In this document: piece by piece, positions 6,835 through 32,000 of the stretch
Numbering within the stretch: the first letter of the stretch is position 1
Layout: each line of letters starts with the position of its first letter
Source of the DNA: Fibrobacter succinogenes subsp. succinogenes S85
GTDB taxonomy: Bacteria; Fibrobacterota; Fibrobacteria; Fibrobacterales; Fibrobacteraceae
Length of the DNA stretch: 32,000 bases
Assembly (NCBI RefSeq): GCF_000146505.1
Contig: NC_017448.1
Coordinates: 930,001-962,000, forward strand
Reading direction: 5' to 3'
The notes under the pieces: generated by a model
Told to the model about the DNA's origin: nothing
What the model saw: only the letters and a program-made list of their open reading frames with translations
Databases searched by the model: none
Made by a program: the position numbers and the translations under genes

Positions 6835-6909
6835 AGGAACCTCCTTATCCTTAAAATACATCTTATTAGATGCCGCCGACCACCTCTTGGTTTCAAGATT
6901 ATCCAAAAA

Positions 6910-7902: not shown

Positions 7903-7951
7903 AAGCCCATTCCTTCTTAGTTTAGTCTGCAAAACAAAATACAAAATAATC

Positions 7952-7986
7952 ACAATAAAACAAAAGACCCCGGCGGTTAAGCCGAG
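7952..7986 (-). terminator. Candidate rho-independent terminator downstream of glnS
   Basis: On the minus strand the stem is CTCGGC-TTAACC-GCCGGG (6 bp including one G-U pair), followed by GTCTTTTGTTTTATTG. Confidence 0.4.
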
Positions 7987-8004
7987 GTAATATGATTCAG
8001 TAAT

Positions 8005-8083
8005 AAGTGGTTAGTGATTAGGAATGTAATAGAAATGTTCTAATTACAATTCCTTCCTACCGCCTACTGTCTACTTCCTACTA
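8005..8083. repeat. Composite heptad-repeat block immediately downstream of the glnS stop
   Basis: On the + strand, CTACCGC CTACTGT CTACTTC CTA CTA spans 8057-8083, which reads as TAG every 7 nt on the glnS-sense strand. GTGGTTA GTGATTA spans 8007-8020. Both word families recur at 12676-12773. Confidence 0.75.
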
Positions 8084-8088
8084 TTTAA

Positions 8089-9756
8089 TTACTTTGTCGG
8101 GTTGAAAGAATCCTTCAAGCCAACAGTTCTGTTGAACACGAGGTGACCCGGCTTGGAGTCTTCGCTATCAAGGCAGAAGTAGCCCTGACGCATGAACTGG
8201 AAGCGGTCTTCGAGCTTCGCGTCGGCGAGTGCGGGTTCCACCTTGGCCTGCTTAATAACCATGGAGTTCGGGTTCAGGTAATCGTGCCAGTCTTCGCCTT
8301 CCGGGACCTGAGCAGGATCTTCGAGCGTGAACAAGTTATCAATGAGGCGCACTTCGGCATCCACAGCGTGTGCGGCAGAAACCCAGTGGATCGTGCCCTT
8401 GACCTTGCGGCCATCCGGAGATTCGCCACCCTTGCTAAGCGGGTCGTAGACGCAGTGAATGACCTTGACCTTGCCGTCATCATCCTTTTCAACGCTCTTG
8501 CAAGTGACAAAGTAAGCACCCTTGAGACGGACTTCGCCTTCCGGCTTCAAGCGGAAGTACTTCTTCGGCGGTTCTTCCATGAAGTCGTCTGCTTCGATGT
8601 AGAGTTCACCGCTGAACGGCACCTTACGCGTACCAGCGTTCGGGTCGTTCGGGTTGTTCTCGACTTCGATCATTTCGACCTTGCCTGCTTCCCAGTTGTC
8701 AATCACGAGCTTGACCGGATCAATCACGGCCATCACGCGGTTAGCGGTCTGGTTCAATTCTTCACGGATGCAGAAGTAAAGGAGGTTCACATCGACCATG
8801 GAGTCGGCCTTGGAAACACCGATGCGGCTGCAGAACTCGCGAATGGAGCTCGGGGTAAAGCCACGGCGGCGGAAACCGCAAACAGTCGGCATACGCGGGT
8901 CGTTCCAGCCAAGCACAGCCTTTGTCTGCACAAGTTCGAGGAGTTTGCGCTTACTCATCATCGTGTACGTGAGGTTCAAGCGGGCAAATTCAATCTGCTG
9001 CGGACGGTTCTGCAAACCAAGTTCAATGAGGAACCAGTCATAAAGCGGACGGTGGGCTTCGAACTCGAGCGTGCAGATGGAGTGCGTGATGCCTTCGATC
9101 CAGTCGCTAATCGGGTGGGCAAAGTCGTACATCGGGTAGATGCACCACTTGTCGCCAGTGCGATGGTGCGTGCAATGCTTGATGCGGTAGATGACCGGAT
9201 CGCGCATGTTCATGTTCGGGCTTGCGAGGTCGACCTTGGCACGGAGGCACTTTTCACCATCGGCGTACTTGCCGTCGCGCATTTCGTGGAAGAGCTTCAT
9301 GTTCTCTTCGACGCTGCGGTCGCGATAGGGGCTCGGGCGGGAGGGCTTGCCGGCATCGTTGCCGCGATATTCCTGCATTTCGTCGCGAGTCAAATCTTCG
9401 ACGTATGCCTTGCCCATTTCAATCATCTTTTCGGCAAAGGCGTAAATCTGGTCGTAGTAGTCGCTTGCGAAAAATTCTTCTTTCCATTCAAAGCCGAGCC
9501 ACTTCACGTCTTCGCGGATGGAATCGACGTATTCCACATCTTCCTTGGTCGGGTTCGTGTCGTCGAAGCGGAGGTTCGTAAAGCCGCCGAACTTTTTGGC
9601 GGTGCCGAAGTTCAAGCAGATGGACTTGGCATGGCCAATGTGAATATAGCCGTTCGGTTCGGGCGGGAAACGCGTCAGCACGTGATCGCGCTTGCCGGTC
9701 TGGAGGTCATTAACTATAATGTCCTGAATAAAATTCGAAGATTCGGGGATTTCCAT
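8089..9756 (-). CDS. glnS: Glutamine--tRNA ligase
   Basis: 555 aa. It has the class I HIGH motif ([17 protein letters not shown]), a KMSKS-like motif (VMSKRKL region: [10 protein letters not shown]), and full-length GlnRS-like sequence. Confidence 0.95.
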
Positions 9757-9790
9757 AACAGGGTCCTTTTAAAATTTTACGAGGGAAATT

Positions 9791-9835
9791 TAGAAAATAG
9801 ACGAGAGACTTGAGACTAGAGACGAGAGGAAATAG
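9791..9835 (+). repeat. Heptanucleotide tandem array TAGAAAA TAGACGA GAGACTT GAGACTA GAGACGA GAGGAAA TAG
   Basis: About 6.4 units with an exact 7-nt period, lying in the divergent glnS/eamA-like intergenic region. It shares GACGAGAGACT...AGAGACGA with 5746-5780. Confidence 0.8.
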
Positions 9836-9909
9836 TGGCAATATAAGGTTATTGAACTTAGGGCTTAGACTGAACAATCTTTGACAAGCATTTCTATTTT
9901 TACACTAGA

Positions 9910-10824
9910 ATGGCAAATATTGGATATAGTTTTTTAATGGTACTGGCGGCATTTCTGTGGGGTTCCACATTTGTCGCCCAAATCGAAGGCAACGACGTCG
10001 GTCCGTTCGCTTTCGTGTGCATGCGAAATTTCATCGCCACAGGTGTCCTTTTCGGACTGGCGAAGGTATTGGACAAATTCAACAAAAGCCCTAGAAAGCC
10101 GAAAACAAAAGAAGAAAACAGGGCGCTCTGGATAGCAGGCTTATTCTGCGGGCTTACGCTTTTCTTTGCCATGAACTTGCAACAGACGGGGCTTTTTCTC
10201 GGATGTTCCGCCGGAAAGGCGGGGTTCCTCACCGCGTGCTACATCATTTTTGTCCCAATTCTAAGCACATTTTTTGGCAAGAAGATTTCCCCTAAGATTT
10301 GGCTTTGCGTTGCCATTACGCTTGAAGGGCTTTACTTGCTCTGCATCAAGGAAGATTTTACCATCCAGCCATCTGATATTATCCTATTGCTTTGCGCACT
10401 CGCCTTCGCGGCACACATTCTCGTCGTTGGGAAATACGGCCCTTACATGGACAATGTGAGACTTTCGGCAATACAGTTTCTCGTGGTCGCAACACTTTCC
10501 ATTTTTCCGATGTTTTTCGTGGACTTGAAAGGGAGTTTTGCGGGTTTTGGCACTGTCATTGAGGTCTATTCGCATTTCAAGCCGTGGATTCCGCTTTTGT
10601 ACGCGGCCATCCTTTCGAGCGGTGTCGCATTCACGTTGCAAATTGTCGCGCAAAATAAATTAAGGCCCACCATAGCATCGCTATTGATGAGCCTTGAATC
10701 TGTGTTTTCCGTGATTTCTGGATGGGTGATGCTCGGTGAGCGATTCACCCTTCAAGAAGCAATCGGTTGCGTGCTAATGTTCACCGCCGTCATCCTTGCG
10801 CAAGTCAAAATCAGACGCCGATAG
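9910..10824 (+). CDS. EamA/DMT-family transporter
   Basis: 304 aa with about 10 predicted TM helices arranged as two EamA-like halves. The N-terminus LMVLAAFLWGSTFVA is typical of the family. Confidence 0.8.
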   Translation: MANIGYSFLMVLAAFLWGSTFVAQIEGNDVGPFAFVCMRNFIATGVLFGLAKVLDKFNKSPRKPKTKEENRALWIAGLFCGLTLFFAMNLQQTGLFLGCSAGKAGFLTACYIIFVPILSTFFGKKISPKIWLCVAITLEGLYLLCIKEDFTIQPSDIILLLCALAFAAHILVVGKYGPYMDNVRLSAIQFLVVATLSIFPMFFVDLKGSFAGFGTVIEVYSHFKPWIPLLYAAILSSGVAFTLQIVAQNKLRPTIASLLMSLESVFSVISGWVMLGERFTLQEAIGCVLMFTAVILAQVKIRRR

Positions 10825-10831
10825 TGCGGAG

Positions 10832-12352
10832 TTATTCGCCTTTTTTCTTGGAACGCTTTTTAATCAACACAAGCGTACCAAAAGTAAGCACAAGGCCGAA
10901 CAACAACGAAAGCACTGCGCTACGGGTGAAACCTGCGACAATGTAGGTGACAAATGAAATTGCGGCTACGACAAGCACGTACGGGATTTGCGTATTGACG
11001 TGATTCACGTGATTGCATTCTGCACCGGCACTTGCCATAATCGTCGTATCCGAAATCGGAGAGCTGTGGTCTCCGCAAACGGCACCCGCCATGCAAGCAG
11101 AAATCGAGATGACCATGAGGCTGTAATCCACACCGCCAAACGCCGCTACGACAATCGGGATGAGGATGCCGAACGTACCCCAGGAAGTACCCGTTGCAAA
11201 AGCGAGGAACGCCGCAATCACAAAGATAATCGCAGGCATGAAGTTCATGAAGCCAGCGGCACCGCCCTTCACAAGACCTGCCACAAATTCCTTTGCGCCA
11301 AGCGCATCCGTCGTACCCTTGAGTGTCCATGCCAAAGTCAAAATCAAAATTGCAGGTACCATCGCCTTGAAGCCATCCGGTAAGCAAGCCATGCTGTGAC
11401 TGAAACGCAACACACGGCGGCTCATATAGAAACAAACGGTAAAGACAAAAGCGCCAAACGAGCCAATCGCAAGACCGACAGACGCATCGCTAGAGGCAAA
11501 CGCATCGACAAAGCCTTTCGCCGCATCGCCCGATGCAAAATAACCGCCCGTATAAATCATGCCAAGCACGCAAAACACAATCAAAGAGGCAATTGGCATT
11601 ACAAGATCAAGGACACCGCCTTTCGTCGATGTAAAATTCAAGTCTTCCATATTTCCACCAACAGCATTTGTATGCATTTCATGCTTTTTCATCGGACCGA
11701 TATTCACATTCCAAACGACAACCAAGAACAACGTAAGAATTGTCAATAACGCATAAAAATTAAACGGAATCGCCTTGATAAAGAGCGTGAGGCCATCCTC
11801 GCCTTCCACGAATCCCGAAACAGCAGCCGCCCAAGAACTGATAGGGGCGATAATGCAAATCGGTGCCGCCGTAGAATCAATCAGGTACGCAAGTTTTTCA
11901 TGGCTCACCTTGAAGCGGTCTGTTACCGGACGCATCACGCTACCCACCGTAAGGCAGTTGAAATAGTCGTCAATAAAAATCAAGATGCCAAAGCAGATCG
12001 TCGCAATCTGCGCACCGACTTTTGACTTGATATGAGCCTTGGCCCAGTTGCCAAAAGCGGCAGAGCCCCCCGCCCTATTCATGAGAGCGACCATTGCACC
12101 CAACATAACAAGGAACACGAGAATACCCACGTTATAAGGGTCTGCGACTTTTGCAATCAAGCCATTCTTGAAAACGGCATCAAAGAATCCCGAGCCAGTC
12201 CCTTGGCAAAGAAGAAGCCCACCGACAATGACGCCCACAAAAAGCGATGAATAAACTTCTTTACTCACAAGGGCAAGAATAATTGCGACAAGAGCAGGCA
12301 CGAGAGCCCAGAAAGTTCCATAAGCCATTATTGTATTTGTGGCCTGTTCCAT
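10832..12352 (-). CDS. Na+/H+ antiporter, NhaC family
   Basis: 506 aa and polytopic. It has NhaC-like segments (ALVPALVAIILALVSKEVYSSLFVGVIVG; FIDDYFNCLTVGSVMRPVTD; GDHSSPISDTTIMAS). Confidence 0.8.
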   Translation of the reverse strand: MEQATNTIMAYGTFWALVPALVAIILALVSKEVYSSLFVGVIVGGLLLCQGTGSGFFDAVFKNGLIAKVADPYNVGILVFLVMLGAMVALMNRAGGSAAFGNWAKAHIKSKVGAQIATICFGILIFIDDYFNCLTVGSVMRPVTDRFKVSHEKLAYLIDSTAAPICIIAPISSWAAAVSGFVEGEDGLTLFIKAIPFNFYALLTILTLFLVVVWNVNIGPMKKHEMHTNAVGGNMEDLNFTSTKGGVLDLVMPIASLIVFCVLGMIYTGGYFASGDAAKGFVDAFASSDASVGLAIGSFGAFVFTVCFYMSRRVLRFSHSMACLPDGFKAMVPAILILTLAWTLKGTTDALGAKEFVAGLVKGGAAGFMNFMPAIIFVIAAFLAFATGTSWGTFGILIPIVVAAFGGVDYSLMVISISACMAGAVCGDHSSPISDTTIMASAGAECNHVNHVNTQIPYVLVVAAISFVTYIVAGFTRSAVLSLLFGLVLTFGTLVLIKKRSKKKGE

Positions 12353-12355
12353 AAA

Positions 12356-12529
12356 TTACTTTTCCTCTGATTTTAAGGATTCAAGCGGATTTTTAATTCC
12401 TGCATTTTCCAATTTTTGCAAAACTTCAATAGCGTAATCAATCGCATCCAAGGAATGCGAACTCGCATACATCCTCAGGTCAGAAAGCGCATAGATCGCC
12501 CTTTGGTTGTTCATCTCTTTTTCCGACAT
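12356..12529 (-). CDS. Small hypothetical protein (57 aa) 3 nt upstream of the NhaC-family gene
   Basis: The product is MSEKEMNNQRAIYALSDLRMYASSHSLDAIDYAIEVLQKLENAGIKNPLESLKSEEK. An AAGGAGAG SD sits 5 nt upstream of the ATG (complement 12527-12529). The track's 80-aa version begins at an upstream alternative start. Confidence 0.45.
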   Translation of the reverse strand: MSEKEMNNQRAIYALSDLRMYASSHSLDAIDYAIEVLQKLENAGIKNPLESLKSEEK

Positions 12530-12675
12530 AATCTCTCCTTTGCATTTTTCAAAAAAATACCTAAAAAATCTAATTATTGCACGAAAATAAAATTGCATTT
12601 TTCGTCAAAAAAAAGTCTCTAACTACAACAAGACCCTGTAAGGCTCCTCCTAATGGAGGATGACAGCTTTCCTCC

Positions 12676-12773
12676 CTAACCACTAGCCACTAACCACTTC
12701 CTACTGCCATCCTTCCTACCGTCTACCGCCTACTCCCCCTAACCACTAATCACTAACCACTACCCACTATTTT
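12676..12773. repeat. Three adjacent heptad arrays, nearly G-free on the + strand
   Basis: The arrays are CTAACCA CTAGCCA CTAACCA (12676-12696), CTACCGT CTACCGC CTACTCC (12716-12736), and CTAACCA CTAATCA CTAACCA CTACCCA CTATTTT (12739-12773). Only 4 G occur in 12671-12773. Confidence 0.85.
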
Positions 12774-12779
12774 ATTATC

Positions 12780-12787
12780 TATATTAT

Positions 12788-12788
<1 letters not shown>
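12780..12788 (+). promoter_or_regulatory. TATATTATA -10-like box directly upstream of the TPP riboswitch
   Basis: Its position a few nt before the first conserved riboswitch nucleotides (CTGGGGTGC at 12790) fits a transcription start at the aptamer 5' end. Confidence 0.4.
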
Positions 12789-14484
<1,696 letters not shown>

Positions 14485-14525
14485 ACTGAAACTAGCCAAA
14501 CCATCCGAGAGAATTGGAGGTGTCC

Positions 14526-16307
14526 ATGGAAAACGGAAAGAAAATTCTTAACAACTTCGTAAAGAGCAAATTCGCCGACCAGAATGAACTAAAGAAGGCT
14601 TTGTTCCAAGCCGGCGTTGCCGCGCTTGACGAAGGCTGGACGTTCATGGATGCCACATTCCAGCTCGGCGGCAAGGCTCGCGACGAGGGGCTCTCGGCAG
14701 ACGATGTCGAGAAGATTTTGCGCAACGCCTTCTCCGAAGAAAAGCGCCGTACCGAACGCGAAGCCGAACAAAAGGCAGCCGCACAAGCCGCTCAAGCAGC
14801 AGCGCAACCCGCACAAGCTCCACAGGCTCAAGCCGCCCAAGCCCAGCCGGGCATGGCTTCAGGCTATGCCGCCATGGGCCCAACCGTCATCTCGCCCATT
14901 TCAGCAACGATGATGCAGCAGATGATTGCGCTCGGTCTCGACAACCAGTCTCTTGAGCTGTTGCAGAACTTCAAGATTGACCCCGAAGCGCTCTCGATTC
15001 CATGGCCCGCCCCTGACTGGCGCAAAGACTTTGCAAAGCTCTTGGCGGCAACGTTCAAGCCCGACGAAACCGTTGAATTCAAGATTTCGAACACACCATC
15101 CGGTTCTCGCGAAATCGTCTCGAAGATTATCGCGCAAGACGAAGCGCTCAAGAAAATCATGAAGCAGCTCGACGGTCCGGACGGAGCGCTCCTCACGATT
15201 AATGCAGTGAAAGGCGGCGCCGACGCCACCGACGAAAGCTGGCATTACCGTTACGTTGTCGTAGACAACCCGAAGATGACGCTTGCGAAGCAGCTCGCTT
15301 ACTACAAGGCATTGAACCTCCCCTGCGCCGCCCTTGTGAACACGGGCGCAAACTCCGTGCAGGCCTGGATCAAGATTGAAGCGCATGACCAGGAAGAATA
15401 CAAGGAACGCGTAGACTTCCTTTTCCAGACGCTTGAATCGCAAGGCTTTAAAGTCGATGACGGCAACCGCAACCCAAACCAGATGGTCCGCATGCCAGGC
15501 GTGCTCCGCAACGGCAAGCAGCAGTATCTCATCGCATTGGAACAAGGCGCCAAGAATTTCACGGAATGGCGCGAATGGGCGGAATACTCGCTCGATGGAA
15601 AGCCGCTCGTAGAACTTGCAAGCGATAGCGAAGAAGCTCCGAAAAAAGACGTTACCATTATCGAGAACGTACTCCGCGCTGGTGAATTTTTCTTGTTCAC
15701 AGCCCCGCCGAAAAGCGGAAAGTCGCTTGCGCTCATGGACATGGCGCTTTCCATTTGCCACGGCGAAGACTGGCTCGGCAACACAACAAATGCAAACGAC
15801 GTTCTGTACATCAACTTGGAACTCACCAAGTCCGTGTTCTTGAACCGTCTCTTTTTACTTGGCGAAAAGCGTAACCTCCAGCCGAACACGCCCAAATTCG
15901 GTTTCTTGAATCTCCGCGGCACAGCGCTTACACCGCTTGAAATCGCACAGCTCATCGCAAAGCGCATTCAAGGCGCCAAGAAGCTTGAAAATCACGATTA
16001 CAAGGTCGTCGTGATTGACCCGATATCTGCCGTTTTGCACAACCCGAAGTCTTCAAGACTCAGCGGCTCCCCGCACCAGATTCTGATGCAAATGGTCGAT
16101 TCGATTATCGCCCTCACAGGTTGCGCCGTCGTGACTTCCACGAACATAGGCGAATACCCCTACCTCGAATCCCGCGCCGACAGCGTCATTTCGCTCACGC
16201 CGGTTGAAGGTAGCCTGAACACGTACCAGATTAAAGGCTCGTTCCGCGAATTCCCGAAGACTCTCGCCCGCGAATGCTCCTGGATTTATCCTAGATTTAT
16301 AGTTTAA
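14526..16307 (+). CDS. Primase-helicase-like fusion: RepB-prime/AEP-like primase core plus a RecA-type (AAA_25/RepA-like) ATPase
   Basis: The ATG at 14526 follows a GGAGG SD (14516-14520). The primase-like core spans aa ~222-335 (INAVKGG...YRYVVVDNP...LVNTGANSVQAWIKI...DDGNRNPNQMVRMPGVLRNGKQQ). Walker A is APPKSGKS (15702-15725) and Walker B is KVVVIDP (16002-16022). An Ala/Gln linker lies near 14770-14850. Confidence 0.65.
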   Translation: MENGKKILNNFVKSKFADQNELKKALFQAGVAALDEGWTFMDATFQLGGKARDEGLSADDVEKILRNAFSEEKRRTEREAEQKAAAQAAQAAAQPAQAPQAQAAQAQPGMASGYAAMGPTVISPISATMMQQMIALGLDNQSLELLQNFKIDPEALSIPWPAPDWRKDFAKLLAATFKPDETVEFKISNTPSGSREIVSKIIAQDEALKKIMKQLDGPDGALLTINAVKGGADATDESWHYRYVVVDNPKMTLAKQLAYYKALNLPCAALVNTGANSVQAWIKIEAHDQEEYKERVDFLFQTLESQGFKVDDGNRNPNQMVRMPGVLRNGKQQYLIALEQGAKNFTEWREWAEYSLDGKPLVELASDSEEAPKKDVTIIENVLRAGEFFLFTAPPKSGKSLALMDMALSICHGEDWLGNTTNANDVLYINLELTKSVFLNRLFLLGEKRNLQPNTPKFGFLNLRGTALTPLEIAQLIAKRIQGAKKLENHDYKVVVIDPISAVLHNPKSSRLSGSPHQILMQMVDSIIALTGCAVVTSTNIGEYPYLESRADSVISLTPVEGSLNTYQIKGSFREFPKTLARECSWIYPRFIV

Positions 16308-16328
16308 ACATTCAACACGATTATAAAG

Positions 16329-17723
16329 ATGTACAAACAGAACAATCGTTTTTCACGCCGCTCCGAAGGGAGCATTGCCCGTAACACCATGGGCAACAGA
16401 ATCGGCAAACCCCTCGCCGGAGGCAAGTTCCACGCTTCCAGAAAATCCGATGTCCGCAAGGACGATGAACTCGAAGAAAAGAAGGCAAAGGCCGAAAAGC
16501 CTGTTGTCCGCAAAATTCTTTCGTTCGACGACATCAAGACCCAAGTTGCCGCATGGATGGAAAACGACCGCATTCCGGGAAAGTTGCAAGCCTGGTTTAC
16601 CGCCGAAGCCACTCCCGAAAACTCCGACTGGAGAATCATCAAGGAATACCACGGTGTCCAGGAAAACCTGGTCATTGACGCTCCGTCCCGCGACATGAAG
16701 CCGCTTGAGCTCGTGAAGCGCATCTTGGAACAGCTCCACAAGGAACATTTGCGCATCTTCAAAAAAGCATTGCGCCAAATCTGGTTCCGCGCCACAGGCG
16801 ACGGCCGCTTTGCTCTCCTCGTACAAGTGAATGTCAAAGGCAAAATTTCGGCACACGGCTACAAGACGTTCGTCGACTTTATCGAACGCAGCTGCCCCGA
16901 AGTCATCAGCTGCCACCAGATCCAGTGCTTGCCGGACCGTCTCTTTGACCCTGCCGATGCTCAGGGCATGAAGGTCGAATCCAAATGCTCCTTCGGCAGC
17001 AGCTTTATGCCGATTGCCTCGACCGGCTTTAGCATGCATGTTTTAGACTGGACGCCGCGCATCAAGGATGCATGGCTCAACCTCCCCGTGCGCATCAAGG
17101 ACGCCATCCACCCGAACCGCGAAGACCGTTTCTTCGAATTCTGCTCTGGCCCGTCTTACGTTTCTGCATCGCTCGCCCCGTTCTTCAAGCAGGTCGAAGC
17201 ACTTGACTGCCGCGAATCCGCCATGCAGTCTTCCAAGCTGAACATCCGTAACCTCGCCACGCAGAACATGCGTTTCCACCGCAGCCATCTGGACGCAAAC
17301 TTCGTCTCGAAATTCTTCTCGAAGAGCGATAACGCTGAAGGCCGCTGGACGTTCTACCTCAACCTGGGCATCAACGACACCATCAATTCCGAAATGGTGC
17401 AGACGCTCGCCGGTTCGCGCCCTGAACGCATTCTTTTGCAGACCGGGAACCTCGAAACCGCCTCTAAGGCGATCAAGGCTTTCCGTAACGAAGGCTACAT
17501 GCTCCGCAAGAACATTCCACTCTACATGGAACCGGGTCGTGGAACTTTCGAAATTCTCTTCTTGTTTGTACCGGATAGAGTTGGCATTTTGGGCCAGAAC
17601 CCGGCCCTTGCACACCGTTCACGCAATATCCAGCGCCCGAAAGAACGCCCCACGCGCTCAAATTCGTCGGATATTCCTCATTTTGTGCAAAAAACGCCCA
17701 CTTTTAAGCAAAGAAAAGATTAA
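16329..17723 (+). CDS. TrmA/RumA-like (uracil-5) methyltransferase-fold protein with substituted catalytic motifs; basic N- and C-terminal tails
   Basis: 464 aa. The C-terminal ~230 aa run collinear with TrmA/RlmD. FFEFCSGPSYVSASLA stands where LDLYCGxGxFSLxLA is expected, SKLNIRNLATQNMRF where A..NA..N...N..F is expected, TFYLNLGIND where DPPRxG is expected, ERILLQTGNLETASKAIKAF where IVYVSCNPxTLARD is expected, and GRGTFEILFLF where T.HVE is expected. Confidence 0.6.
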   Translation: MYKQNNRFSRRSEGSIARNTMGNRIGKPLAGGKFHASRKSDVRKDDELEEKKAKAEKPVVRKILSFDDIKTQVAAWMENDRIPGKLQAWFTAEATPENSDWRIIKEYHGVQENLVIDAPSRDMKPLELVKRILEQLHKEHLRIFKKALRQIWFRATGDGRFALLVQVNVKGKISAHGYKTFVDFIERSCPEVISCHQIQCLPDRLFDPADAQGMKVESKCSFGSSFMPIASTGFSMHVLDWTPRIKDAWLNLPVRIKDAIHPNREDRFFEFCSGPSYVSASLAPFFKQVEALDCRESAMQSSKLNIRNLATQNMRFHRSHLDANFVSKFFSKSDNAEGRWTFYLNLGINDTINSEMVQTLAGSRPERILLQTGNLETASKAIKAFRNEGYMLRKNIPLYMEPGRGTFEILFLFVPDRVGILGQNPALAHRSRNIQRPKERPTRSNSSDIPHFVQKTPTFKQRKD

Positions 17724-26273: not shown

Positions 26274-27071
26274 GTGGGAAAATTACGCTTTGTTTTGCCT
26301 AATACTTTCACAAGCCTGAACTTTTTGCTTGGCGTGTTCTCCATTTGCTGGACAACCGGAGCATTTGGTTCGTTTAGTACGGCAGACCAAATCCGCATGG
26401 GTGCCTATTTCGTCATGTTGTGCGCCCTTTTTGATAAGCTTGATGGCTTTGCCGCCCGCCTCGTGAACGCCAGTTCCGAATTCGGCGCTCAGTTCGATAG
26501 CCTTGCCGACTTGGTGGCTTTCGGTCTCGCCCCTGCATTCTGCGTTTTCTTCACCTACAAGATTTACGCACCGGAATGGTTCCAGAACCATGGGCTCCTG
26601 ATGACGGTTGCACTTGCCGTTTACGTGCTCTGTGCCGCCATGCGCCTCGCCAAGTACAATGCTTGCGATTCTGACACTTACCACCACCATTTCTCCGGCC
26701 TCCCTTCCACCTTTGCGGGCATGGTCAATGCAACACTCATCGTGTTCCTCATGACCAAGGGCGTTTTCGCAGACTCCAGCACGTTCCTCTTCTGGCTCCC
26801 GATTATCGTGTTTGTCATTACAGGATTCTTGATGGTAAGCCCGTTGTTCCTCCCGAAACTCCAGCCGCGCAAGAACAAGGCTTTCAACATTTTCCAGATC
26901 GTGCTGATCCTGCTCACCTACGTTGCAGGCATCCTCTTCTACAACCCGAAGGTACCGTTCATTCTTGAATACCTGCTCATTCTCGGTTCAAGCTACATGG
27001 TGATTGGTTTTGCAGTAGGCCTCATCTACCGCAAGCAGATTATCAAAGAAGCTAAAGCAGCCAAAAAGTAG
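26274..27071 (+). CDS. pssA: CDP-diacylglycerol--serine O-phosphatidyltransferase (CDP-alcohol phosphatidyltransferase family)
   Basis: A GTG start follows an AAGGAG SD. It has the motif DKLDGFAARLVNASSEFGAQFDSLADLVAFGLAP (D-G-x2-A-R-x8-G-x3-D-x3-D) and multiple TM helices. Confidence 0.85.
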   Translation: MGKLRFVLPNTFTSLNFLLGVFSICWTTGAFGSFSTADQIRMGAYFVMLCALFDKLDGFAARLVNASSEFGAQFDSLADLVAFGLAPAFCVFFTYKIYAPEWFQNHGLLMTVALAVYVLCAAMRLAKYNACDSDTYHHHFSGLPSTFAGMVNATLIVFLMTKGVFADSSTFLFWLPIIVFVITGFLMVSPLFLPKLQPRKNKAFNIFQIVLILLTYVAGILFYNPKVPFILEYLLILGSSYMVIGFAVGLIYRKQIIKEAKAAKK

Positions 27072-27971: not shown

Positions 27972-28645
27972 AAGTAAGGATAGATGTAATCCTCCGCGAG
28001 CTGCGGGAGATTCACCAGTACAGCGCGTTTGCATTCCATATCCGAGCGTTCATAGATGCTCCGCAGTGTGTCTAGCGAAAAATGCTCCAAGCGCTTACGC
28101 GATGTCGGCAAGTGCGCAATGTGCCAGCCTTCAGGCTTGATTTTCCCGCACCCGGGAATAAACACACGGCTAAAGCCAAACGATGTATCAGCCTCCATCC
28201 GGGACGTCAAAAAAGCATGGAACTTTGCAAACATGCCACTGCACTCCGCGGGCGTGAGCTCAACCTCATAGCCCTCCGGGCATGCAGCTCCATCGACCAC
28301 GTCGATGTCCGTCCCCAGATGGTGACGGCTCGCCCCCGGCAATGCCGACCATGTGAGAATCGCATACATCAGCTCTTCTTCGTCTTTCGGGCGTTCCATC
28401 GGCTCGCCCTTTTCATTCAAGAGCTTGAGTTCGCCACGCGCCTTGCGATTCCAAATTGAGAGTTGCTTTTCAAACGAACGGTACGCCGATTCAATACGCA
28501 GCACAAAACCATTCACCTTGACTTCGTTTGACAGAGCACGCAAATCATCCACAATTTCGCGATCTACAAAGTATCCCGGCTGGAATTCCACCAAGTCAGG
28601 CGTACCAAGGCCATAGGGCAACAAATCCTGAGACAAGTCCGTCAT
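27965..28645 (-). CDS. M15-family (VanY/LdcB-like) D,D- or L,D-carboxypeptidase
   Basis: It has the motifs SAYRSFEKQ, GASRHHLGTDIDV and EGWHIAH. Its start overlaps the ruvC stop by 4 nt (ATGA). Confidence 0.75.
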   Translation of the reverse strand: MTDLSQDLLPYGLGTPDLVEFQPGYFVDREIVDDLRALSNEVKVNGFVLRIESAYRSFEKQLSIWNRKARGELKLLNEKGEPMERPKDEEELMYAILTWSALPGASRHHLGTDIDVVDGAACPEGYEVELTPAECSGMFAKFHAFLTSRMEADTSFGFSRVFIPGCGKIKPEGWHIAHLPTSRKRLEHFSLDTLRSIYERSDMECKRAVLVNLPQLAEDYIYPYFI

Positions 28646-29211
28646 TGAATCGTCCCTCCCATTTTTTCAATCAAGTCTTTCCATTGCTGCACCGTCGTTT
28701 TCTTTTTGGGCTTCGACTTTTTACCCAAAAGCGACTGCGCCAACGGAGCCGGATTCGCATGAGTCCACGCAATCGCTAGCGCATCCGAAGCATCAAGCGG
28801 GAGATCCCCGCCAACAATTCCCAAATGCGCAAAAATCATGTTCGCCACATGTTCCTTCGAGGCGGCGCCATTGCCTGTCACGGCCTGCTTCACAACTTTC
28901 GGTGGGTATTCCTCGTACGTCATTCCGCGACGGTGGCACGCCACAAGAATCGCCCCGCGGATATGCCCAAGCACCAAGGCGCTCTTCACGTTCTTTGCAA
29001 AGAACACGCCTTCCATCGCAAGCGCATCCGGGTGGTAATGGTCCAGGCGTTTTTCGAGCTCCGTCACGATATGCACAAGCCTATCTTCGAGATTTTTGGT
29101 GGCATTCGCATGGAACGTGCCATATTCCAGCACCTGAATTTGGTTGCCAGTCTTTTTCAAGAACGCATATCCGGTCGTAATCGAGCCCGGGTCAATACCA
29201 AGAATAACCAT
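28642..29211 (-). CDS. ruvC: Crossover junction endodeoxyribonuclease RuvC
   Basis: It shows MVILGIDPGSITTGYAF...LAMEGVFFAKNVKSALVLGHIRG...VKQAVTGNGAASKEHV...ASDALAIAWTHA, plus a Lys-rich C-terminal extension. Confidence 0.9.
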   Translation of the reverse strand: MVILGIDPGSITTGYAFLKKTGNQIQVLEYGTFHANATKNLEDRLVHIVTELEKRLDHYHPDALAMEGVFFAKNVKSALVLGHIRGAILVACHRRGMTYEEYPPKVVKQAVTGNGAASKEHVANMIFAHLGIVGGDLPLDASDALAIAWTHANPAPLAQSLLGKKSKPKKKTTVQQWKDLIEKMGGTIQ

Positions 29212-29301
29212 ATTCCAAAAAATAGATAAAATTGCTTTTTTTTCAAAAAAAACGCATTTACGGGAGCGTACTTTATTAGATTTCTCTTATAGGAGGCCGC
29301 A

Positions 29302-31185
29302 ATGCTGATTGATCAAGAACATGCAGAGTATATGAGAACTAAAGCTCACCCGAGGCAGTTGGGAATTCCCCTGAGCCGTTGGGGGCGTAACCTTATCGCC
29401 TGCTGTCCGTTCCACGCTCCAGAAGAAACATCGCTGTTTTTCTACGACGCGCTAGGTTACTGGCGCTACCGCTGTCTCCAATGTGGTGCAGAAGGCGACT
29501 TGGTCGATTTTTTGATGAAGAGCCGTTTCAACGGCGTGGACGAACAGACCGCCCGTTCCGAAGCCTTTGAATTCCTCGGCGCACTCGACAAGGATCTCGT
29601 AAACAATCAGGATAGCGAACACCCGTGGGTCAAGGAAGTCGGTGGCGAAAAGTCCAAAGTGCTCGAATGCTTTGTACGTTACTGCCACTGGGCCGCCTGC
29701 AAGAGCCCCTCTTCGGCAAAGTTCCTCGAAGCCCGTGGCTGGAGCATTGGCCAAGCCCAACTTTACGGTCTCGGTTACTACAGCGGCGACCCGGAACCGT
29801 TCATCAGCTACTGCATGCTCTCCGGTATCGAACGCCACCAGATCAGTTTTTACCTCGACAACCTCGAAGCGTATCACGAACCGCGAATTACCATTCCGGC
29901 CCGCAATTCCAAGGGATTTATCCATTCCGTTTACGGTAGACTCATCGACGATAACGAAAAGAGCCATACCTACATCACGTATGCTTCCGGCCCGACCGTT
30001 ATTCCGTTCAACATCCAGGCAGATAGCGAAAACCCCATTATCGTGCAAGGTTTCTTTGATGCGCTCACGGCGGACCTCGCCGGCATCCCAGGCGTTGTCT
30101 CCACGATGTTCCAGGAACTGAACGTCAACCACCTGTACAAACTCAAGGCTTGCGGGGCCGAATCATTCACAGTTATTTTGCGCCGCGAAGAAGACCGTCG
30201 CAACCAGGAACTCAAGATTCAAAAATACTTGAAGCTCGCCGAACAGATGCACATGAGCCTCAAGTCCATTGTGCTCCCGAAGGACGAATCCGTTGATACG
30301 TTTGTCCGCAAGAACGGCGCCGACCAGCTCATCGACCTCATCGCCAATACCGAAGTCGATACCATTCATTCGCACCGCCGCTCCATGCTGTTGCAGGACA
30401 TCAAGGAAAACTTCGATACCGCAATGGCATGCCCGCCTGACCAGAGCGTGGGCTACAAGCTCAGCACATTCCCGAAGCTCACCAAGGAAATCGACGGTGT
30501 GCAGTCGGGATGTTTCTTTGTTTCGTCTCAGCCGTTCGGCCTCAAGACATTCTTGCTTTCAAGCCTCACGCTTGACCTCATCGAAAGCAATCCAAACCTC
30601 AAGGTCATTTACGTGGCCTATGAAACACCGCGCCGCCAAATCTTTGACCGCTTCGTTTCCATGCTCATCGGTGAATCGATTTTGAACGTCCGCAAGCAGA
30701 ATGCAGACAACGAAATCAACAAAAAGATTACGGAAGCTACACGCGACCTGATGGCTTACGTGCGCAACAACCGTCTCGAAATCTGGGACGACATGCCTTC
30801 GCTCGACTTTAACGACTTGCTCAAGACACTTAGCCAGGAACTCAAGGACCATCCGGACTTGATTCTCGTGATTGACGGTATCGACCACATGAAGATTACC
30901 GACCGCCCGGAACTCCCGGACATCCACGAGAAGCGTTCGTCCATCATGCTCGACTTGTACAAGGCTCTCGACATCCCGATATTCCTCGGTGGCGAACTCA
31001 TCGATTCCAACATGGGACTCCTTGGCCCGCGTGCATACCTCCGCGATTCTGACGCCATTTACTGGCTTACCGAAAAGGATGGCGCATTGAATCTCTCCGT
31101 AGATTCCAAGCGTATGGGCACAAGCCGCGTGTACGAAGACAAGATTTTGATTGACCCACAATCTAGCCGCATGAAAGAAGCTTAA
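29302..31185 (+). CDS. DnaG-like zinc-finger/primase-Toprim region fused to a DnaB/gp4-like RecA-fold domain, with non-canonical catalytic motifs
   Basis: An AGGAGG SD sits 5 nt upstream. The CHC2 zinc finger is CPFHAPEETSLFF...YRCLQCGAEGDLVDFLM (29401-29484). The Toprim-like region reads IIVQGFFD (Q codon at 30046-30048)...VILRREEDRR...LPKDESVDTFVRKNG. The DnaB_C-like region reads SSQPFGLKT (30523-30549)...VAYET...LILVIDGIDHM. Confidence 0.7.
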   Translation: MLIDQEHAEYMRTKAHPRQLGIPLSRWGRNLIACCPFHAPEETSLFFYDALGYWRYRCLQCGAEGDLVDFLMKSRFNGVDEQTARSEAFEFLGALDKDLVNNQDSEHPWVKEVGGEKSKVLECFVRYCHWAACKSPSSAKFLEARGWSIGQAQLYGLGYYSGDPEPFISYCMLSGIERHQISFYLDNLEAYHEPRITIPARNSKGFIHSVYGRLIDDNEKSHTYITYASGPTVIPFNIQADSENPIIVQGFFDALTADLAGIPGVVSTMFQELNVNHLYKLKACGAESFTVILRREEDRRNQELKIQKYLKLAEQMHMSLKSIVLPKDESVDTFVRKNGADQLIDLIANTEVDTIHSHRRSMLLQDIKENFDTAMACPPDQSVGYKLSTFPKLTKEIDGVQSGCFFVSSQPFGLKTFLLSSLTLDLIESNPNLKVIYVAYETPRRQIFDRFVSMLIGESILNVRKQNADNEINKKITEATRDLMAYVRNNRLEIWDDMPSLDFNDLLKTLSQELKDHPDLILVIDGIDHMKITDRPELPDIHEKRSSIMLDLYKALDIPIFLGGELIDSNMGLLGPRAYLRDSDAIYWLTEKDGALNLSVDSKRMGTSRVYEDKILIDPQSSRMKEA

Positions 31186-32000
31186 TGTTTACCATTGTCG
31201 ATTTTAACAACTTCTGGAGTCCGTCAGGAGGCGGAGTCCGCCGTTACCATTTGCAGAAAATGGCGTTTTATGAACGCCAAAACGAAGTCCGTTCCGTCTT
31301 CGTGATGCCATCAGCAAGCACTTATACCGAAACACGAAGCGATGGCTTGATTATCGAACATGTGGAAGCATTCCGATTCCCCGGCAACTGGGAATACCGC
31401 TTTATGTGGAAGTCCAAACAAATTCGCCCGATTCTCGAGAAGTACAAACCGGACGTGATTGAAGTGGGTTCACCCTACATTTTGCCCTCGGCCGTGCGCC
31501 GCATTGCAAAAAAAGTTGTCCCCAACGCTGCACTGTTCAGCTTTTGGCATGCCGACTTCCCCGTGACTTACGTGGGGCGCCCCATCGCCAAAAAATTCGG
31601 CACAAGCGTAGGCGTTCTTTCCCGCAGAATAGCATTCTGGTACGCCAAACAGGAATTTAAAAACTACGATTGCGTACAAGCGTCTTCGAAAGAAGCGATG
31701 GCTCGCCTCAAGAAGAACGGACTCCCCGACCCGCGTTGGATTCCGCTCGGTTGCGACATCGAAACTTTCTCGCCAAGCCGCCGTGACGAAGCACTCGTGA
31801 ACGAACTCAAGGATGGCGATCCGAACCGCCTCACGATATTCTTCCCGCACAGGCATTGCAATGAAAAAGGCATTGACCTTGTTCTTGGCGCTTACGACAT
31901 TTTGACGCAAAAACTCGGACACGAGCCCGCCATCATCTTTGCAGGCACGGGCCCAAGCCTCCCGCTCGTGCAAGAAGCAGCCGCAAAATACAAGCACGTA
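31185..32000 (+). CDS. GT-B fold glycosyltransferase (family 4-like), N-terminal 272 aa; continues past the window end
   Basis: Its ATG overlaps the preceding stop (TAATG). MFTIVDFNNFWSPSGGGVRRYHLQKM...KPDVIEVGSPYILP... is a typical GT4 N-terminal domain. It is not in the track because it is open-ended. Confidence 0.7.
   Translation, partial: MFTIVDFNNFWSPSGGGVRRYHLQKMAFYERQNEVRSVFVMPSASTYTETRSDGLIIEHVEAFRFPGNWEYRFMWKSKQIRPILEKYKPDVIEVGSPYILPSAVRRIAKKVVPNAALFSFWHADFPVTYVGRPIAKKFGTSVGVLSRRIAFWYAKQEFKNYDCVQASSKEAMARLKKNGLPDPRWIPLGCDIETFSPSRRDEALVNELKDGDPNRLTIFFPHRHCNEKGIDLVLGAYDILTQKLGHEPAIIFAGTGPSLPLVQEAAAKYKHV

What the first reader, a model, noticed from the sequence alone, without database searches (positions are those of the whole stretch)
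29302..31185. T7 gp4-style DnaG-DnaB fusion with an eroded Toprim acidic cluster and a non-canonical P-loop, translationally coupled to a glycosyltransferase
The N-terminus is an unmistakable CHC2 primase zinc finger (CPFH...CLQCGAEGDLVDFLM). The following region is collinear with the bacterial DnaG RNA-polymerase/Toprim core, down to LPKDESVDTFVRKNG where canonical DnaG has LPxGxDPD..vRk.G. The canonical catalytic residues are changed, however. EGxxD reads QGFFD. DGDxAG reads RREEDRR. KYLNSPET reads HTYITYASGP.

The C-terminal 240 aa are DnaB_C/gp4-helicase-like (VAYET for SLEM; LILVIDGIDHM for the Walker B region). The Walker A reads SQPFGLKT, so both P-loop glycines are lost.

The stop overlaps the start of a GT4 glycosyltransferase (TAATG), and the gene diverges from ruvC. 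Together with 14526-16307, this is the second primase-helicase-type fusion with altered active-site residues in one 32-kb chromosomal window. They belong to different primase superfamilies (Toprim vs AEP). That pattern suggests repurposed, non-replicative roles, or an atypical replisome.
Basis: partly seen in the sequence, partly recalled or inferred. Interest (0 to 1): 0.7.

Follow-up and report, generated by a model that had tools for sequence, protein, structure and literature searches.

The report
Inactivated primase-helicase conserved in Fibrobacter
This Fibrobacter gene encodes a T7-gp4/Twinkle-shaped primase-helicase that has lost the key catalytic features of both halves yet is expressed and tightly conserved, so it is most likely a domesticated, non-enzymatic relic of a mobile-element replication protein rather than the cell's own primase.

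Summary
ORF 29302-31185 (627 aa) has an intact CHC2 zinc ribbon, a DnaG-type RNA-polymerase/Toprim core and a RecA-like DnaB_C domain. The predicted fold matches T7 gp4 and Twinkle over its full length.

The Toprim DxD is replaced by R-R-x-x-x-R-R, the NTP-binding KYxNS motif is gone, and the glycine before the P-loop lysine is L/F/Y/H. The basic DNA-binding loop of the helicase domain is also shortened from 18-27 residues to 11.

It is E in 87 and Q in 34 of 121 genus clusters, and it toggles between close species.

One deep relative (P0124) keeps every canonical motif. The intact sister family includes a member inside an integrase/ParA element.

The family was found only in Fibrobacterota. 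dN/dS is 0.03-0.08. A lipid-type GT4 glycosyltransferase lies immediately downstream in 81 of 85 loci.

In F. succinogenes S85 the ortholog Fisuc_0442 is constitutively transcribed. A separate "DNA primase", a "replicative DNA helicase" and DciA are annotated or reported elsewhere in that genome.

Verdict: a domesticated primase-helicase inactivated in both domains, not the replicative primase. Its cellular role is unknown.

The parts
29302..31185 (+). Whole ORF, 627 aa: zinc ribbon, DnaG-type RPD/Toprim, linker helix and RecA-like domain (gp4/Twinkle architecture)
   Evidence: AF2 model with mean pLDDT 84.7. Foldseek hits to 2au3, 7t8c, 5ikn, 1q57 and 4esv.
29291..29296 (+). Shine-Dalgarno AGGAGG, 5 nt upstream of the ATG
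   Evidence: Read directly from the sequence.
29365..29523 (+). CHC2 zinc ribbon (aa 22-74). The ligands C35, H38, C58 and C61 are invariant.
   Evidence: Pfam PF01807, E=1.9e-9, above the gathering score. Invariant columns. dN/dS 0.01-0.05.
29647..30021 (+). RPD N-subdomain (aa ~116-240). It includes the degenerate KYxNSPET motif, which reads HTYITYASGP at aa 222-231.
   Evidence: TIGR01391 alignment, 2au3 alignment, motif table. dN/dS 0.01-0.05.
30022..30351 (+). Toprim-like subdomain (aa 241-350) with degenerate acidic residues
   Evidence: DSSP strand 288-293 and helix 299-315 fix the register of the DxD-equivalent segment.
30046..30048 (+). Codon 249, CAA (Gln), at the Toprim catalytic Glu position
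   Evidence: CAA here versus GAA in L055 and L069. E in 87 and Q in 34 of 121 clusters. The residue toggles within the 86-100% identity clade.
30181..30201 (+). R294-R295-E-E-D-R299-R300, replacing the Toprim Y-D-G-D-x-A-G segment
   Evidence: HMM alignment to 2au3. R295, R299 and R300 are invariant and R294 is present in 118 of 121.
30352..30471 (+). Inter-domain linker with a long helix (aa 355-376, HRRSMLLQDIKENFD), the equivalent of the gp4/DnaB subunit-bridging linker
   Evidence: DSSP helix 355-376. Near-invariant. dN/dS 0.00-0.10. Short-linker form compared with the intact sisters.
30472..31182 (+). RecA-like DnaB_C-type domain (aa 391-627)
   Evidence: Pfam DnaB_C is weak. phrog_19 DnaB-like helicase, E=5e-8. 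The family profile hits intact fusions through this domain at E down to 1e-32.
30523..30549 (+). Degenerate Walker A, S-S-Q-P-F-G-L-K-T (aa 408-416), with Leu where the invariant Gly precedes Lys
   Evidence: The residue before Lys is L, F, Y or H in all but the two deepest branches.
30991..31035 (+). Shortened loop (aa 564-578, GELIDSNMGLLGPRA) at the position of the basic H4-type DNA-binding loop. It has 11 residues and 1 basic residue, against 18-27 residues and 4-7 basic residues (one sister, P0140, has a single basic residue) in the intact relatives.
31183..31187 (+). TAATG stop/start overlap with the downstream gene
   Evidence: An overlap is present in 56 of 85 related loci. No terminator-like site lies between the genes on the + strand.
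31185..32000 (+). GT4 glycosyltransferase, 5' part (runs off the window). It is the conserved downstream partner.
   Evidence: Pfam Glyco_transf_4. The full-length ortholog L077:7854-9032 best matches NF053787, GlcNAc-phosphatidylglycerol synthase, at 191.5 bits, below the cutoff of 480. Adjacent in 81 of 85 loci.
28642..29211 (-). ruvC, the divergent upstream neighbour. This is context, not part of the unit.
   Evidence: Pfam RuvC, E=1e-43. The adjacency is seen only in members with about 60% identity or more.

Best explanation
The gene is a domesticated descendant of a mobile-element gp4-type primase-helicase. It has been inactivated in both catalytic halves and is kept as a non-enzymatic protein.

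Shown:
- The fold and domain order of T7 gp4/Twinkle are preserved.
- The zinc ribbon, the RPD N-subdomain and the inter-domain linker helix are the most constrained parts.
- The Toprim DxD, the NTP-binding KYxNS motif, the glycine before the P-loop lysine and the basic DNA-binding loop of the helicase domain are lost.
- Catalytic positions drift or toggle between lineages while the protein as a whole is under strong purifying selection.
- A separate DNA primase and a separate replicative helicase are annotated in the same genome, and the DciA survey that included that strain reports the gene for the phylum.

Inferred:
- The protein still oligomerises through the linker helix and RecA-like domain, as gp4 and DnaB do.
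- It still binds single-stranded nucleic acid, or a partner protein, through the zinc ribbon and RPD groove.
- The four invariant arginines that replaced the metal site may contribute to this binding.
- It neither makes primers nor translocates on DNA. It acts as a scaffold or regulator.

Its cellular partner is unknown. Candidates are the replisome or repair machinery, or the product of the co-translated GT4 gene.
For: Architecture:
- AF2 model with mean pLDDT 84.7.
- Foldseek full-length hits to Twinkle 7t8c (E=1.5e-16, 640 columns) and to T7 gp4 5ikn, 1q57 and 6n9x (about 1e-13, 530-655 columns). The N-terminal half matches Aquifex DnaG 2au3 (E=7e-17).

Inactivation:
- HMM alignment to 2au3 places Q at the Toprim Glu, R295 and E297 at the DxD, and S/T at one Asp of the DPD.
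- The AF2 strand (288-293) and helix (299-315) fix that register.
- R295, R299 and R300 are invariant in 121 clusters and R294 is present in 118. Position 297 is Q, A, E, L or H, and 298 is D or N.
- The residue before the P-loop Lys is L, F, Y or H.
- The basic loop is cut from 18-27 residues with 4-7 K/R (one sister, P0140, has a single K/R) to 11 residues with 1.

Relaxed constraint on catalysis only:
- The Toprim Glu is E, Q, D or P in different branches and toggles between E and Q within an 86-100% identity clade.
- The P-loop Lys becomes His in P0122.
- Overall dN/dS is 0.03-0.08 and is lowest in the zinc ribbon, RPD-N and linker.

Origin:
- P0124 is a full-length family member (414 bits) with all canonical motifs.
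- The intact sister P0147 lies between an integrase/HTH_17 pair and ParA/Phage_CRI.

Not the replicative primase:
- In S85, Fisuc_0441 (ruvC), Fisuc_0442 (CHC2 protein) and Fisuc_0443 (GT group 1) form the syntenic ortholog.
- Fisuc_0525 'DNA primase' and Fisuc_0745 'replicative DNA helicase' are separate genes.
- DciA is reported for Fibrobacteres.

Expressed:
- Fisuc_0442 has a mean expression value of 9.98 with a range of 9.75-10.25 across conditions. DnaB is 11.06 and DnaG 8.88.
Against: - I never saw the sequences of Fisuc_0525 and Fisuc_0745, so their canonical status rests on published annotation tables only.
- K415, S/T416, E441, D525, H529 and R577 are invariant across about 80 Fibrobacter species. 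A completely nucleotide-blind domain would not obviously require that.
- Position 296 is almost always acidic and 298 is D or N, so a weak or shifted metal site cannot be strictly excluded.
- Oligomerisation and nucleic-acid binding are inferred from homology and were not tested.
- No protein-level detection was found in the two S85 proteomics supplements searched.
- The scaffold or regulator role has no direct evidence and no identified partner.
Confidence: 0.55

Rival explanations
1. A 'bacterial Twinkle'. The primase half is dead, but the RecA-like half is still a working NTP-driven translocase or helicase with an unusual P-loop. It would act in some DNA transaction such as repair or recombination next to ruvC.
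For: - K415, S/T416, E441, D525, H529 and R577 are invariant across the genus.
- P0121 keeps a canonical A-H-P-F-G-G-K-T and S-L-E-M although its Toprim Glu is Pro.
- Twinkle is among the best structural matches.
- In Twinkle a dead primase-like domain still aids ssDNA binding (PMC2241861).
- ruvC is adjacent in the genus.
Against: - The glycine directly before the P-loop Lys is replaced by L, F, Y or H. From general knowledge of P-loop NTPases, that Gly adopts a backbone conformation that other residues cannot easily take.
- The Lys/Arg-rich loop at the H4 DNA-binding position is deleted in the genus.
- The Lys becomes His in P0122 and the Thr becomes Ala or Gly in P0125 and L076.
- ruvC adjacency is absent in the deeper branches.
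Confidence: 0.15
2. A dedicated partner or regulator of the downstream GT4 membrane glycolipid-type glycosyltransferase. In this reading the old primase-helicase fold is reused as a scaffold in envelope or lipid biogenesis with no DNA role.
For: - The GT4 ortholog is immediately downstream in 81 of 85 loci, with stop/start overlap in 56.
- The pair persists in branches of only 33-41% identity where ruvC and the other neighbours have changed.
- In L004 the two genes are separated by just one inserted gene.
- No terminator lies between the genes.
- Both genes fall in the same constitutive expression cluster in S85.
- GT4 best matches GlcNAc-phosphatidylglycerol synthase, and a CDP-alcohol phosphatidyltransferase and an HAD phosphatase recur nearby.
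Against: - Regional synteny is partly conserved in the deep branches too. L005 keeps the HK/RR/beta-propeller/CDP-OH block. Adjacency alone is therefore weak evidence.
- The most constrained parts are the nucleic-acid-type modules, namely the zinc ribbon and RPD.
- The intact relative P0124 is followed by a different, weak GT2-type gene.
- The gene does not appear in the S85 membrane-proteome tables.
- No known precedent exists.
Confidence: 0.15
3. It is the real replicative primase of Fibrobacter, possibly fused to its helicase, and uses a divergent active site.
For: - Several sources name family members 'DNA primase' or 'replicative DNA helicase'.
- It is the best TIGR01391 hit in this window.
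- It is universal in the genus and well expressed.
Against: - The score is 83.9 against a cutoff of 283.6.
- The DxD, KYxNS and one DPD Asp are lost family-wide, and the Toprim Glu toggles with Gln or is Pro or Asp.
- S85 has a separately annotated DNA primase and replicative helicase, and DciA is reported for the phylum.
Confidence: 0.03
4. A decaying pseudogene, or a still-mobile selfish-element gene that happens to sit here.
For: - The catalytic motifs are eroded.
- The intact sister family is element-borne.
Against: - dN/dS is 0.03-0.08 in every domain, with intact reading frames in 86 species-level sequences.
- The chromosomal position between ruvC and GT4 is fixed across the genus, with no integrase nearby.
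- It diverges at the same rate as GT4 and RuvC.
- It is constitutively transcribed.
Confidence: 0.02

Closest known systems
Bacteriophage T7 gp4 primase-helicase (SF4)
   Same: - The same single-chain order: CHC2 zinc ribbon, RPD (N-subdomain plus Toprim), short linker helix, RecA-like domain.
- Foldseek aligns 530-655 columns to 5ikn, 1q57 and 6n9x at about 1e-13.
- There is no DnaB-type N-terminal domain.
   Different: - The Toprim DxD, one DPD Asp, the NTP-binding motif, the P-loop Gly and the basic DNA-binding loop are lost.
- It is a conserved chromosomal gene of a cellular lineage, not a phage gene.
Metazoan Twinkle (mitochondrial gp4-like helicase)
   Same: - A gp4-type protein whose primase-like N-domain has lost catalysis but is retained.
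- It is the second-best structural match (7t8c, E=1.5e-16).
- The precedent is that the dead domain still contributes to ssDNA binding (PMC2241861).
   Different: - Twinkle keeps a canonical, active helicase domain and, from established knowledge, has lost the zinc-finger cysteines.
- Here the zinc ribbon is intact and highly constrained, while the helicase half is degenerate as well.
Bacterial DnaG primase (TIGR01391)
   Same: - The zinc ribbon and RPD are collinear with DnaG over aa 22-361.
- The structural match to Aquifex DnaG ZBD+RPD has E=7e-17.
   Different: - It scores far below the equivalog cutoff.
- The catalytic acidic cluster is degenerate.
- The C-terminal DnaB-binding helical domain is replaced by a RecA-like domain.
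Element-borne DnaG-DnaB_C fusions with TNxGKTA / FSLDDS / IDGLYNL motifs (unnamed; P0133-P0147)
   Same: - These are the closest intact relatives by profile search (E=1e-32 to 1e-20), matching best through the RecA-like domain.
- They share the GYxLxxFxxLxxxxDGxQxG, RLExxD and IDG signatures.
   Different: - They keep VEGxxD, DxDxAG, DPD and GKT, plus the long basic loop.
- They carry an extra helical segment of about 110 residues between the Toprim and the linker.
- At least one sits in an integrase/ParA element.

Membership tests
Bacterial DnaG primase (TIGR01391 equivalog) | CHC2 zinc ribbon | tested here: met
   PF01807 at 37.7 bits against a gathering score of 24.9. C35, H38, C58 and C61 are invariant.
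Bacterial DnaG primase (TIGR01391 equivalog) | Whole-protein score above the curated cutoff | tested here: not met
   83.9 bits against a cutoff of 283.6.
Bacterial DnaG primase (TIGR01391 equivalog) | Toprim acidic cluster: Glu of EGxxD, DxD, and both Asp of DPD | tested here: not met
   Q249 (E in other clades). D-G-D becomes R295-E296-E297, with position 297 variable. One DPD Asp becomes S or T. Only D253 and D332 are kept.
Bacterial DnaG primase (TIGR01391 equivalog) | KYxNSPET nucleotide-binding motif | tested here: not met
   It reads T-Y-I-T-Y-A-S-G. Only the Tyr is conserved.
Bacterial DnaG primase (TIGR01391 equivalog) | C-terminal helical DnaB-binding domain | tested here: not met
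   The C-terminus is a RecA-like DnaB_C-type domain.
Bacterial DnaG primase (TIGR01391 equivalog) | Template-directed primer synthesis | not testable with these tools
   Needs a biochemical assay.
gp4/Twinkle-type primase-helicase (SF4) | Single chain with ZBD, RPD, linker helix and RecA-like domain, and no DnaB N-domain | tested here: met
   AF2 model. Full-length Foldseek matches to gp4 and Twinkle.
gp4/Twinkle-type primase-helicase (SF4) | Canonical Walker A, [AG]xxxxGK[ST] | tested here: not met
   S-Q-P-F-G-L-K-T. The residue before Lys is L, F, Y or H across the genus.
gp4/Twinkle-type primase-helicase (SF4) | Walker B Asp and H1a catalytic Glu | tested here: met
   D525 and E441 are invariant in 121 clusters.
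gp4/Twinkle-type primase-helicase (SF4) | Basic central-channel DNA-binding loop (H4 region) | tested here: not met
   11 residues with 1 K/R, against 18-27 residues with 4-7 K/R in the intact relatives, one of which (P0140) has a single K/R.
gp4/Twinkle-type primase-helicase (SF4) | Ring (hexamer or heptamer) assembly and NTP-driven unwinding | not testable with these tools
   Only a monomer could be modelled. The linker helix is conserved.
DnaB replicative helicase (PF00772 + PF03796) | N-terminal DnaB domain (PF00772) | tested here: not met
   No hit. The N-terminus is DnaG-like.
DnaB replicative helicase (PF00772 + PF03796) | DnaB_C above the gathering score | tested here: not met
   19.9 bits against 27.
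Anti-phage defence systems (PADLOC) | Match to a defence-system protein model beyond a shared domain | tested here: not met
   Only the zinc ribbon matches DRT-associated DnaG-like models.

The most novel reading that the evidence does not exclude
The dead primase-helicase is an obligate non-catalytic partner of the co-translated GT4 membrane glycolipid synthase. It would physically couple nucleic acid, or the replisome or chromosome, to membrane-lipid head-group synthesis in Fibrobacterota. That would be a link between DNA transactions and envelope biogenesis with no described precedent.
Probability: 0.1. Interest if true: 0.8.

Novelty: new variant of a known kind. Interest (0 to 1): 0.55.

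Why it matters
Pseudoenzymes that descend from replication proteins are known. Metazoan Twinkle's primase domain is one example, and the archaeal exosome-associated DnaG, known from the general literature, is another. A gp4-type primase-helicase inactivated in both halves, yet kept as a highly constrained, well-transcribed core gene of a whole bacterial lineage, was not found in the literature searched.

The family offers a natural erosion series that runs from fully intact (P0124), through half-intact (P0121), to doubly degenerate (the genus Fibrobacter). That series could be used to ask what non-catalytic function a primase-helicase scaffold can be selected for.

There is also a practical consequence. 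The family is currently annotated inconsistently as 'DNA primase', 'replicative DNA helicase' or 'CHC2 zinc finger protein'. Such labels could mislead replication-gene inventories and marker-gene analyses of Fibrobacterota.

Tried and rejected
1. Retrieving a canonical Fibrobacter DnaG sequence. The best stand-alone DnaG representatives from the profile search carried no Fibrobacter names. The promising P0254/P0279 cluster proved to be a dnaG-rpoD locus of an unrelated organism. The only paper mentioning both 'dnaG' and F. succinogenes was irrelevant. The point therefore rests on annotation tables.

2. The helicase-loader-replacement idea. It is weakened because DciA is reported for Fibrobacteres in the replication operon.

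3. The defence-system idea. PADLOC matches only the zinc ribbon.

4. The phage or prophage idea for the target. PHROGs gives only generic primase and DnaB-like hits. There is no integrase or tRNA in the window. There are no close phage relatives of the sister family.

5. A shifted DxD. [ED]296-x-[DN]298 looks DxD-like at +1. However, the AF2 strand/helix register agrees with the HMM alignment, position 298 is Asn in about 40% of clusters, and one species has A-A-N. I consider it unlikely but not strictly excluded.

6. Protein-level evidence. There was no hit for Fisuc_0442 in two S85 proteomics supplements.

7. Promoter and terminator scans were uninformative. One promoter-like site was found against 2.0 expected.

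8. Organism names for the intact sister proteins. None are on record.

9. The AEP identity of ORF 14514-16307. There was no PDB sequence match for its N-terminal 369 aa.
Full report
**Observation**

AGGAGG lies 5 nt upstream of the ATG.

- Pfam finds the DnaG CHC2 zinc ribbon at aa 22-74 above its gathering score. It finds DnaB_C at aa 389-560 only weakly (19.9 bits against 27).
- NCBIfam's dnaG equivalog TIGR01391 aligns aa 22-361 collinearly but scores 83.9 bits against a cutoff of 283.6.
- A phmmer alignment to Aquifex DnaG (2au3) places IVQGFFD on ILVEGYFD, ILRREEDRR on ILYDGDDAG, LPKDESVD on LPEGYDPD, and TYIT on KYIN.
- TAA at 31183-31185 overlaps ATG at 31185-31187.
- The downstream ORF is a GT4, and ruvC is divergent upstream.

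**Architecture**

I predicted the structure with AlphaFold2 from a 41-sequence alignment. The model is confident (mean pLDDT 84.7). It shows a zinc-ribbon module, an RPD with a Toprim-like subdomain, a long helix at aa 355-376 and a RecA-like domain.

Foldseek against the PDB gives Aquifex DnaG ZBD+RPD as the top hit (E=7e-17). Full-length matches follow to human and fish Twinkle (E=1.5e-16; 640 columns for the human 7t8c) and to T7 gp4 (about 1e-13, 530-655 columns). DnaB matches only the C-terminal half. The description 'gp4-style' is thus supported at fold level.

**Who has it**

The 120 best of 245 protein-database hits are all the same length, 70-98% identical, and named from Fibrobacter or Fibrobacteraceae. 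Their labels are inconsistent: DNA primase, replicative DNA helicase, or CHC2 zinc finger protein.

A profile search of 1.84 billion representatives finds only 16 proteins below 1e-30. They comprise one cluster for the genus, four further full-length clusters (P0121-P0124), a truncated fifth (P0125), two intact fusion proteins and gene fragments.

A scan of one genome per 185,579 species used the family-specific zinc-ribbon peptide pattern. It matched 106 stretches, of which 96 encode a relative. All 80 kept loci are Fibrobacter, Fibrobacteraceae, Fibrobacterales, Fibrobacteria or 'Fibrobacteres' assemblies. L077, from a rumen 'F. succinogenes' MAG, is 98% identical to the window.

**Motif states across the family**

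Among 121 genus-level clusters:

- The Toprim Glu position is E in 87 and Q in 34.
- R295, R299 and R300 are invariant, and R294 is present in 118.
- Position 296 is E or D, position 297 is Q, A, E, L or H, and position 298 is D or N.
- K415, T416, E441, D525 and D332 are invariant.
- Position 414, where the glycine should be, is L or H.

A distance tree of 86 species-level sequences shows the following:

- The outgroup P0124/L001 has every canonical motif: ILVEGIFD, LDND, LPPGFDPD and NPNLGKST.
- Three deep branches have D, P and P at the Toprim Glu.
- One of these, P0122, has His for the P-loop Lys.
- Another, P0121, keeps a canonical GGKT.
- Inside the window's own 86-100% identity clade, three species have E (GAA) nested among eleven with Q (CAA or CAG).

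The losses of the DxD and of the P-loop glycine are old.

**Could the DxD simply be shifted?**

[ED]296-x-[DN]298 resembles a DxD displaced by one residue. Several points argue against this:

- The AF2 strand (288-293) and the following helix (from 299) agree with the register of the HMM alignment.
- Position 298 is Asn in about 40% of clusters.
- One species reads A-A-N.

I regard a functional shifted metal site as unlikely but not formally excluded.

**The helicase half**

The loop between the P-loop strand and the Lys has the same length as in DnaB. The change is a substitution of the glycine directly before the Lys, not an insertion. From general knowledge of P-loop NTPases, that glycine has a backbone conformation that other residues do not easily adopt.

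The segment between the GE[LI] strand and the Arg/Lys-finger region is 18-27 residues in intact relatives and DnaB-type fusions. It carries 4-7 Lys/Arg in all but one of them (P0140 has one). In the Fibrobacter genus it is 11 residues with one basic residue. This is the position of the SF4 H4 DNA-binding loop. Both features argue against a working translocase.

It remains unexplained why K415, S/T416, E441, D525, H529 and R577 stay invariant in the genus.

**Selection**

I calculated Nei-Gojobori dN/dS between the window and nine relatives, with dS between 0.38 and 1.08.

| Region | dN/dS |
|---|---|
| Whole protein | 0.03-0.08 |
| Zinc ribbon | 0.01-0.05 |
| RPD N-subdomain | 0.01-0.05 |
| Linker helix | 0.00-0.10 |
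| Toprim-like subdomain | 0.02-0.11 |
| RecA-like domain | 0.04-0.13 |

The target diverges at about the same rate as its neighbours GT4 and RuvC. It is a maintained protein, not a pseudogene.

**Origin**

The nearest intact relatives are fusions of about 660-840 aa (most about 750-800). They carry VEGxxD, DxDxAG, DPD and TNxGKTA, and they match best through the RecA-like domain. They are singletons on short metagenomic contigs without organism names.

The one on a long contig, P0147, lies between a tyrosine integrase/HTH_17 pair and ParA/Phage_CRI. These proteins have no close phage relatives. This points to domestication of an integrative-element primase-helicase, followed by loss of catalysis.

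**Is it the cell's primase?**

Published gene tables for F. succinogenes S85 list this gene order: Fisuc_0439 amidase, 0440 VanY, 0441 RuvC, 0442 'zinc finger CHC2-family protein', 0443 'glycosyl transferase group 1', 0444 hypothetical, 0445 phosphoglycolate phosphatase, 0446 cysteine desulfurase. This is the same order as in the window and L003.

The same tables list Fisuc_0525 'DNA primase' and Fisuc_0745 '(primary) replicative DNA helicase' as separate genes. A survey of helicase operators reports dciA for Fibrobacteres within the replication operon.

Fisuc_0442 is transcribed at a steady level across all conditions. Its mean is 9.98, compared with 11.06 for DnaB, 8.88 for DnaG and 5.92 for RuvC.

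I could not obtain the sequence of Fisuc_0525 or Fisuc_0745, so their canonical nature is inferred from annotation.

**The GT4 link**

A GT4 ortholog is immediately downstream in 81 of 85 loci, and in 56 of them the stop and start overlap. The four exceptions are three contig ends and L001.

The pair persists in branches of 33-41% identity where ruvC is no longer adjacent. In one branch a single gene has been inserted between the two.

The GT4's best model is NF053787, GlcNAc-phosphatidylglycerol synthase. The match is full-length at 191.5 bits, below the cutoff of 480. A CDP-alcohol phosphatidyltransferase and an HAD phosphatase recur nearby.

Regional synteny is partly retained in those deep branches too, so the adjacency is suggestive rather than proof of a functional link.

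**Conclusion**

The finding is real, and its core interpretation is right. The protein is a gp4/Twinkle-type primase-helicase that has lost key catalytic features of both enzymatic halves. It is restricted to Fibrobacterota, vertically inherited, strongly constrained and expressed. The same genome separately annotates a DNA primase and a replicative helicase, and DciA is reported for the phylum.

The most likely mode of action is non-enzymatic. It would oligomerise through the conserved linker and RecA-like domain, and bind nucleic acid or a partner through the zinc ribbon and RPD. The new arginine patch may contribute to that binding. The partner and the cellular role remain unknown.

Rival readings are a residual helicase and a dedicated partner of GT4. 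Neither is excluded.

The other 'primase-helicase' in the window (14514-16307) is an unrelated phage/mobile-type primase-ATPase with a canonical Walker A. It does not bear on this gene.

Noticed in passing
window 14514-16307 (+): This 597-aa ORF hits phrog_2597 'DNA primase' (E=1.5e-73, aa 199-540) and Pfam AAA_25 (aa 370-540). Its Walker A, APPKSGKS, is canonical, and it has a Gln/Ala-rich low-complexity stretch near aa 85-110. The N-terminal 369 aa have no PDB sequence match, so AEP membership is unverified. It looks like a mobile-element or phage-type primase-ATPase next to thiC, and it is unrelated to the target gene.
   Followed up: partly
F. succinogenes S85 gene tables (PMC6204037 supplement): S85 carries further primase- and helicase-annotated genes. 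Fisuc_0292 is a second 'zinc finger CHC2-family protein' between gspE and murB. Fisuc_1153 is a 'DnaB helicase domain protein' with low, variable expression. Fisuc_1297 is a 'DNA primase small subunit' beside an XRE regulator and an adenine methyltransferase. Their relation to the target family is unknown.
   Followed up: no
L029 and L074 (both from MAG JAFXRC01, RGIG6669): One MAG holds two divergent full-length copies, each with its own ruvC and GT4 flanks, and they fall in different clades of the tree. This most likely reflects a mixed bin of two Fibrobacter species rather than a duplication.
   Followed up: partly
window 26274-27071 and 31185-32000; L077 7854-9035 and 12169-12936; L005 13094-13876: The GT4 partner resembles GlcNAc-phosphatidylglycerol synthase. 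It recurs near a CDP-alcohol phosphatidyltransferase and an HAD 'phosphoglycolate phosphatase'-type hydrolase, sometimes with a Dabb protein. This may be a membrane-lipid head-group gene cluster in Fibrobacterota.
   Followed up: partly
L087 (contig of P0147), 6314-16841: An intact sister primase-helicase sits in an apparent integrative element: tyrosine integrase, HTH_17, a 606-aa unknown protein, the primase-helicase, ParA and a weak Phage_CRI hit. The host carries Por_Secre_tail (T9SS) proteins.
   Followed up: partly
Alignment of the window protein with P0133-P0147 (window aa 350-360): Most intact sister proteins carry an extra helical segment of about 110 residues between the Toprim and the linker helix. 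The Fibrobacter family, P0124 and P0137 lack it, so the domesticated lineage derives from, or converged on, a short-linker gp4-like form.
   Followed up: no
L001 and L002 (same JGI metagenome, 3300048930): The intact member P0124 and the degenerate member P0122 come from two different contigs of one sample. Both have RelE/HTH toxin-antitoxin pairs a few kb upstream. P0124 is followed by a weak GT2-type gene rather than the GT4 ortholog.
   Followed up: no
window 8089-9756 (-) and 8143-9813 (+): A 556-aa antisense ORF almost fully overlaps the glutaminyl/glutamyl-tRNA synthetase gene. There is a similar long antisense ORF opposite thiC (12823-14376, - strand). These are probably compositional shadow ORFs.
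   Followed up: no
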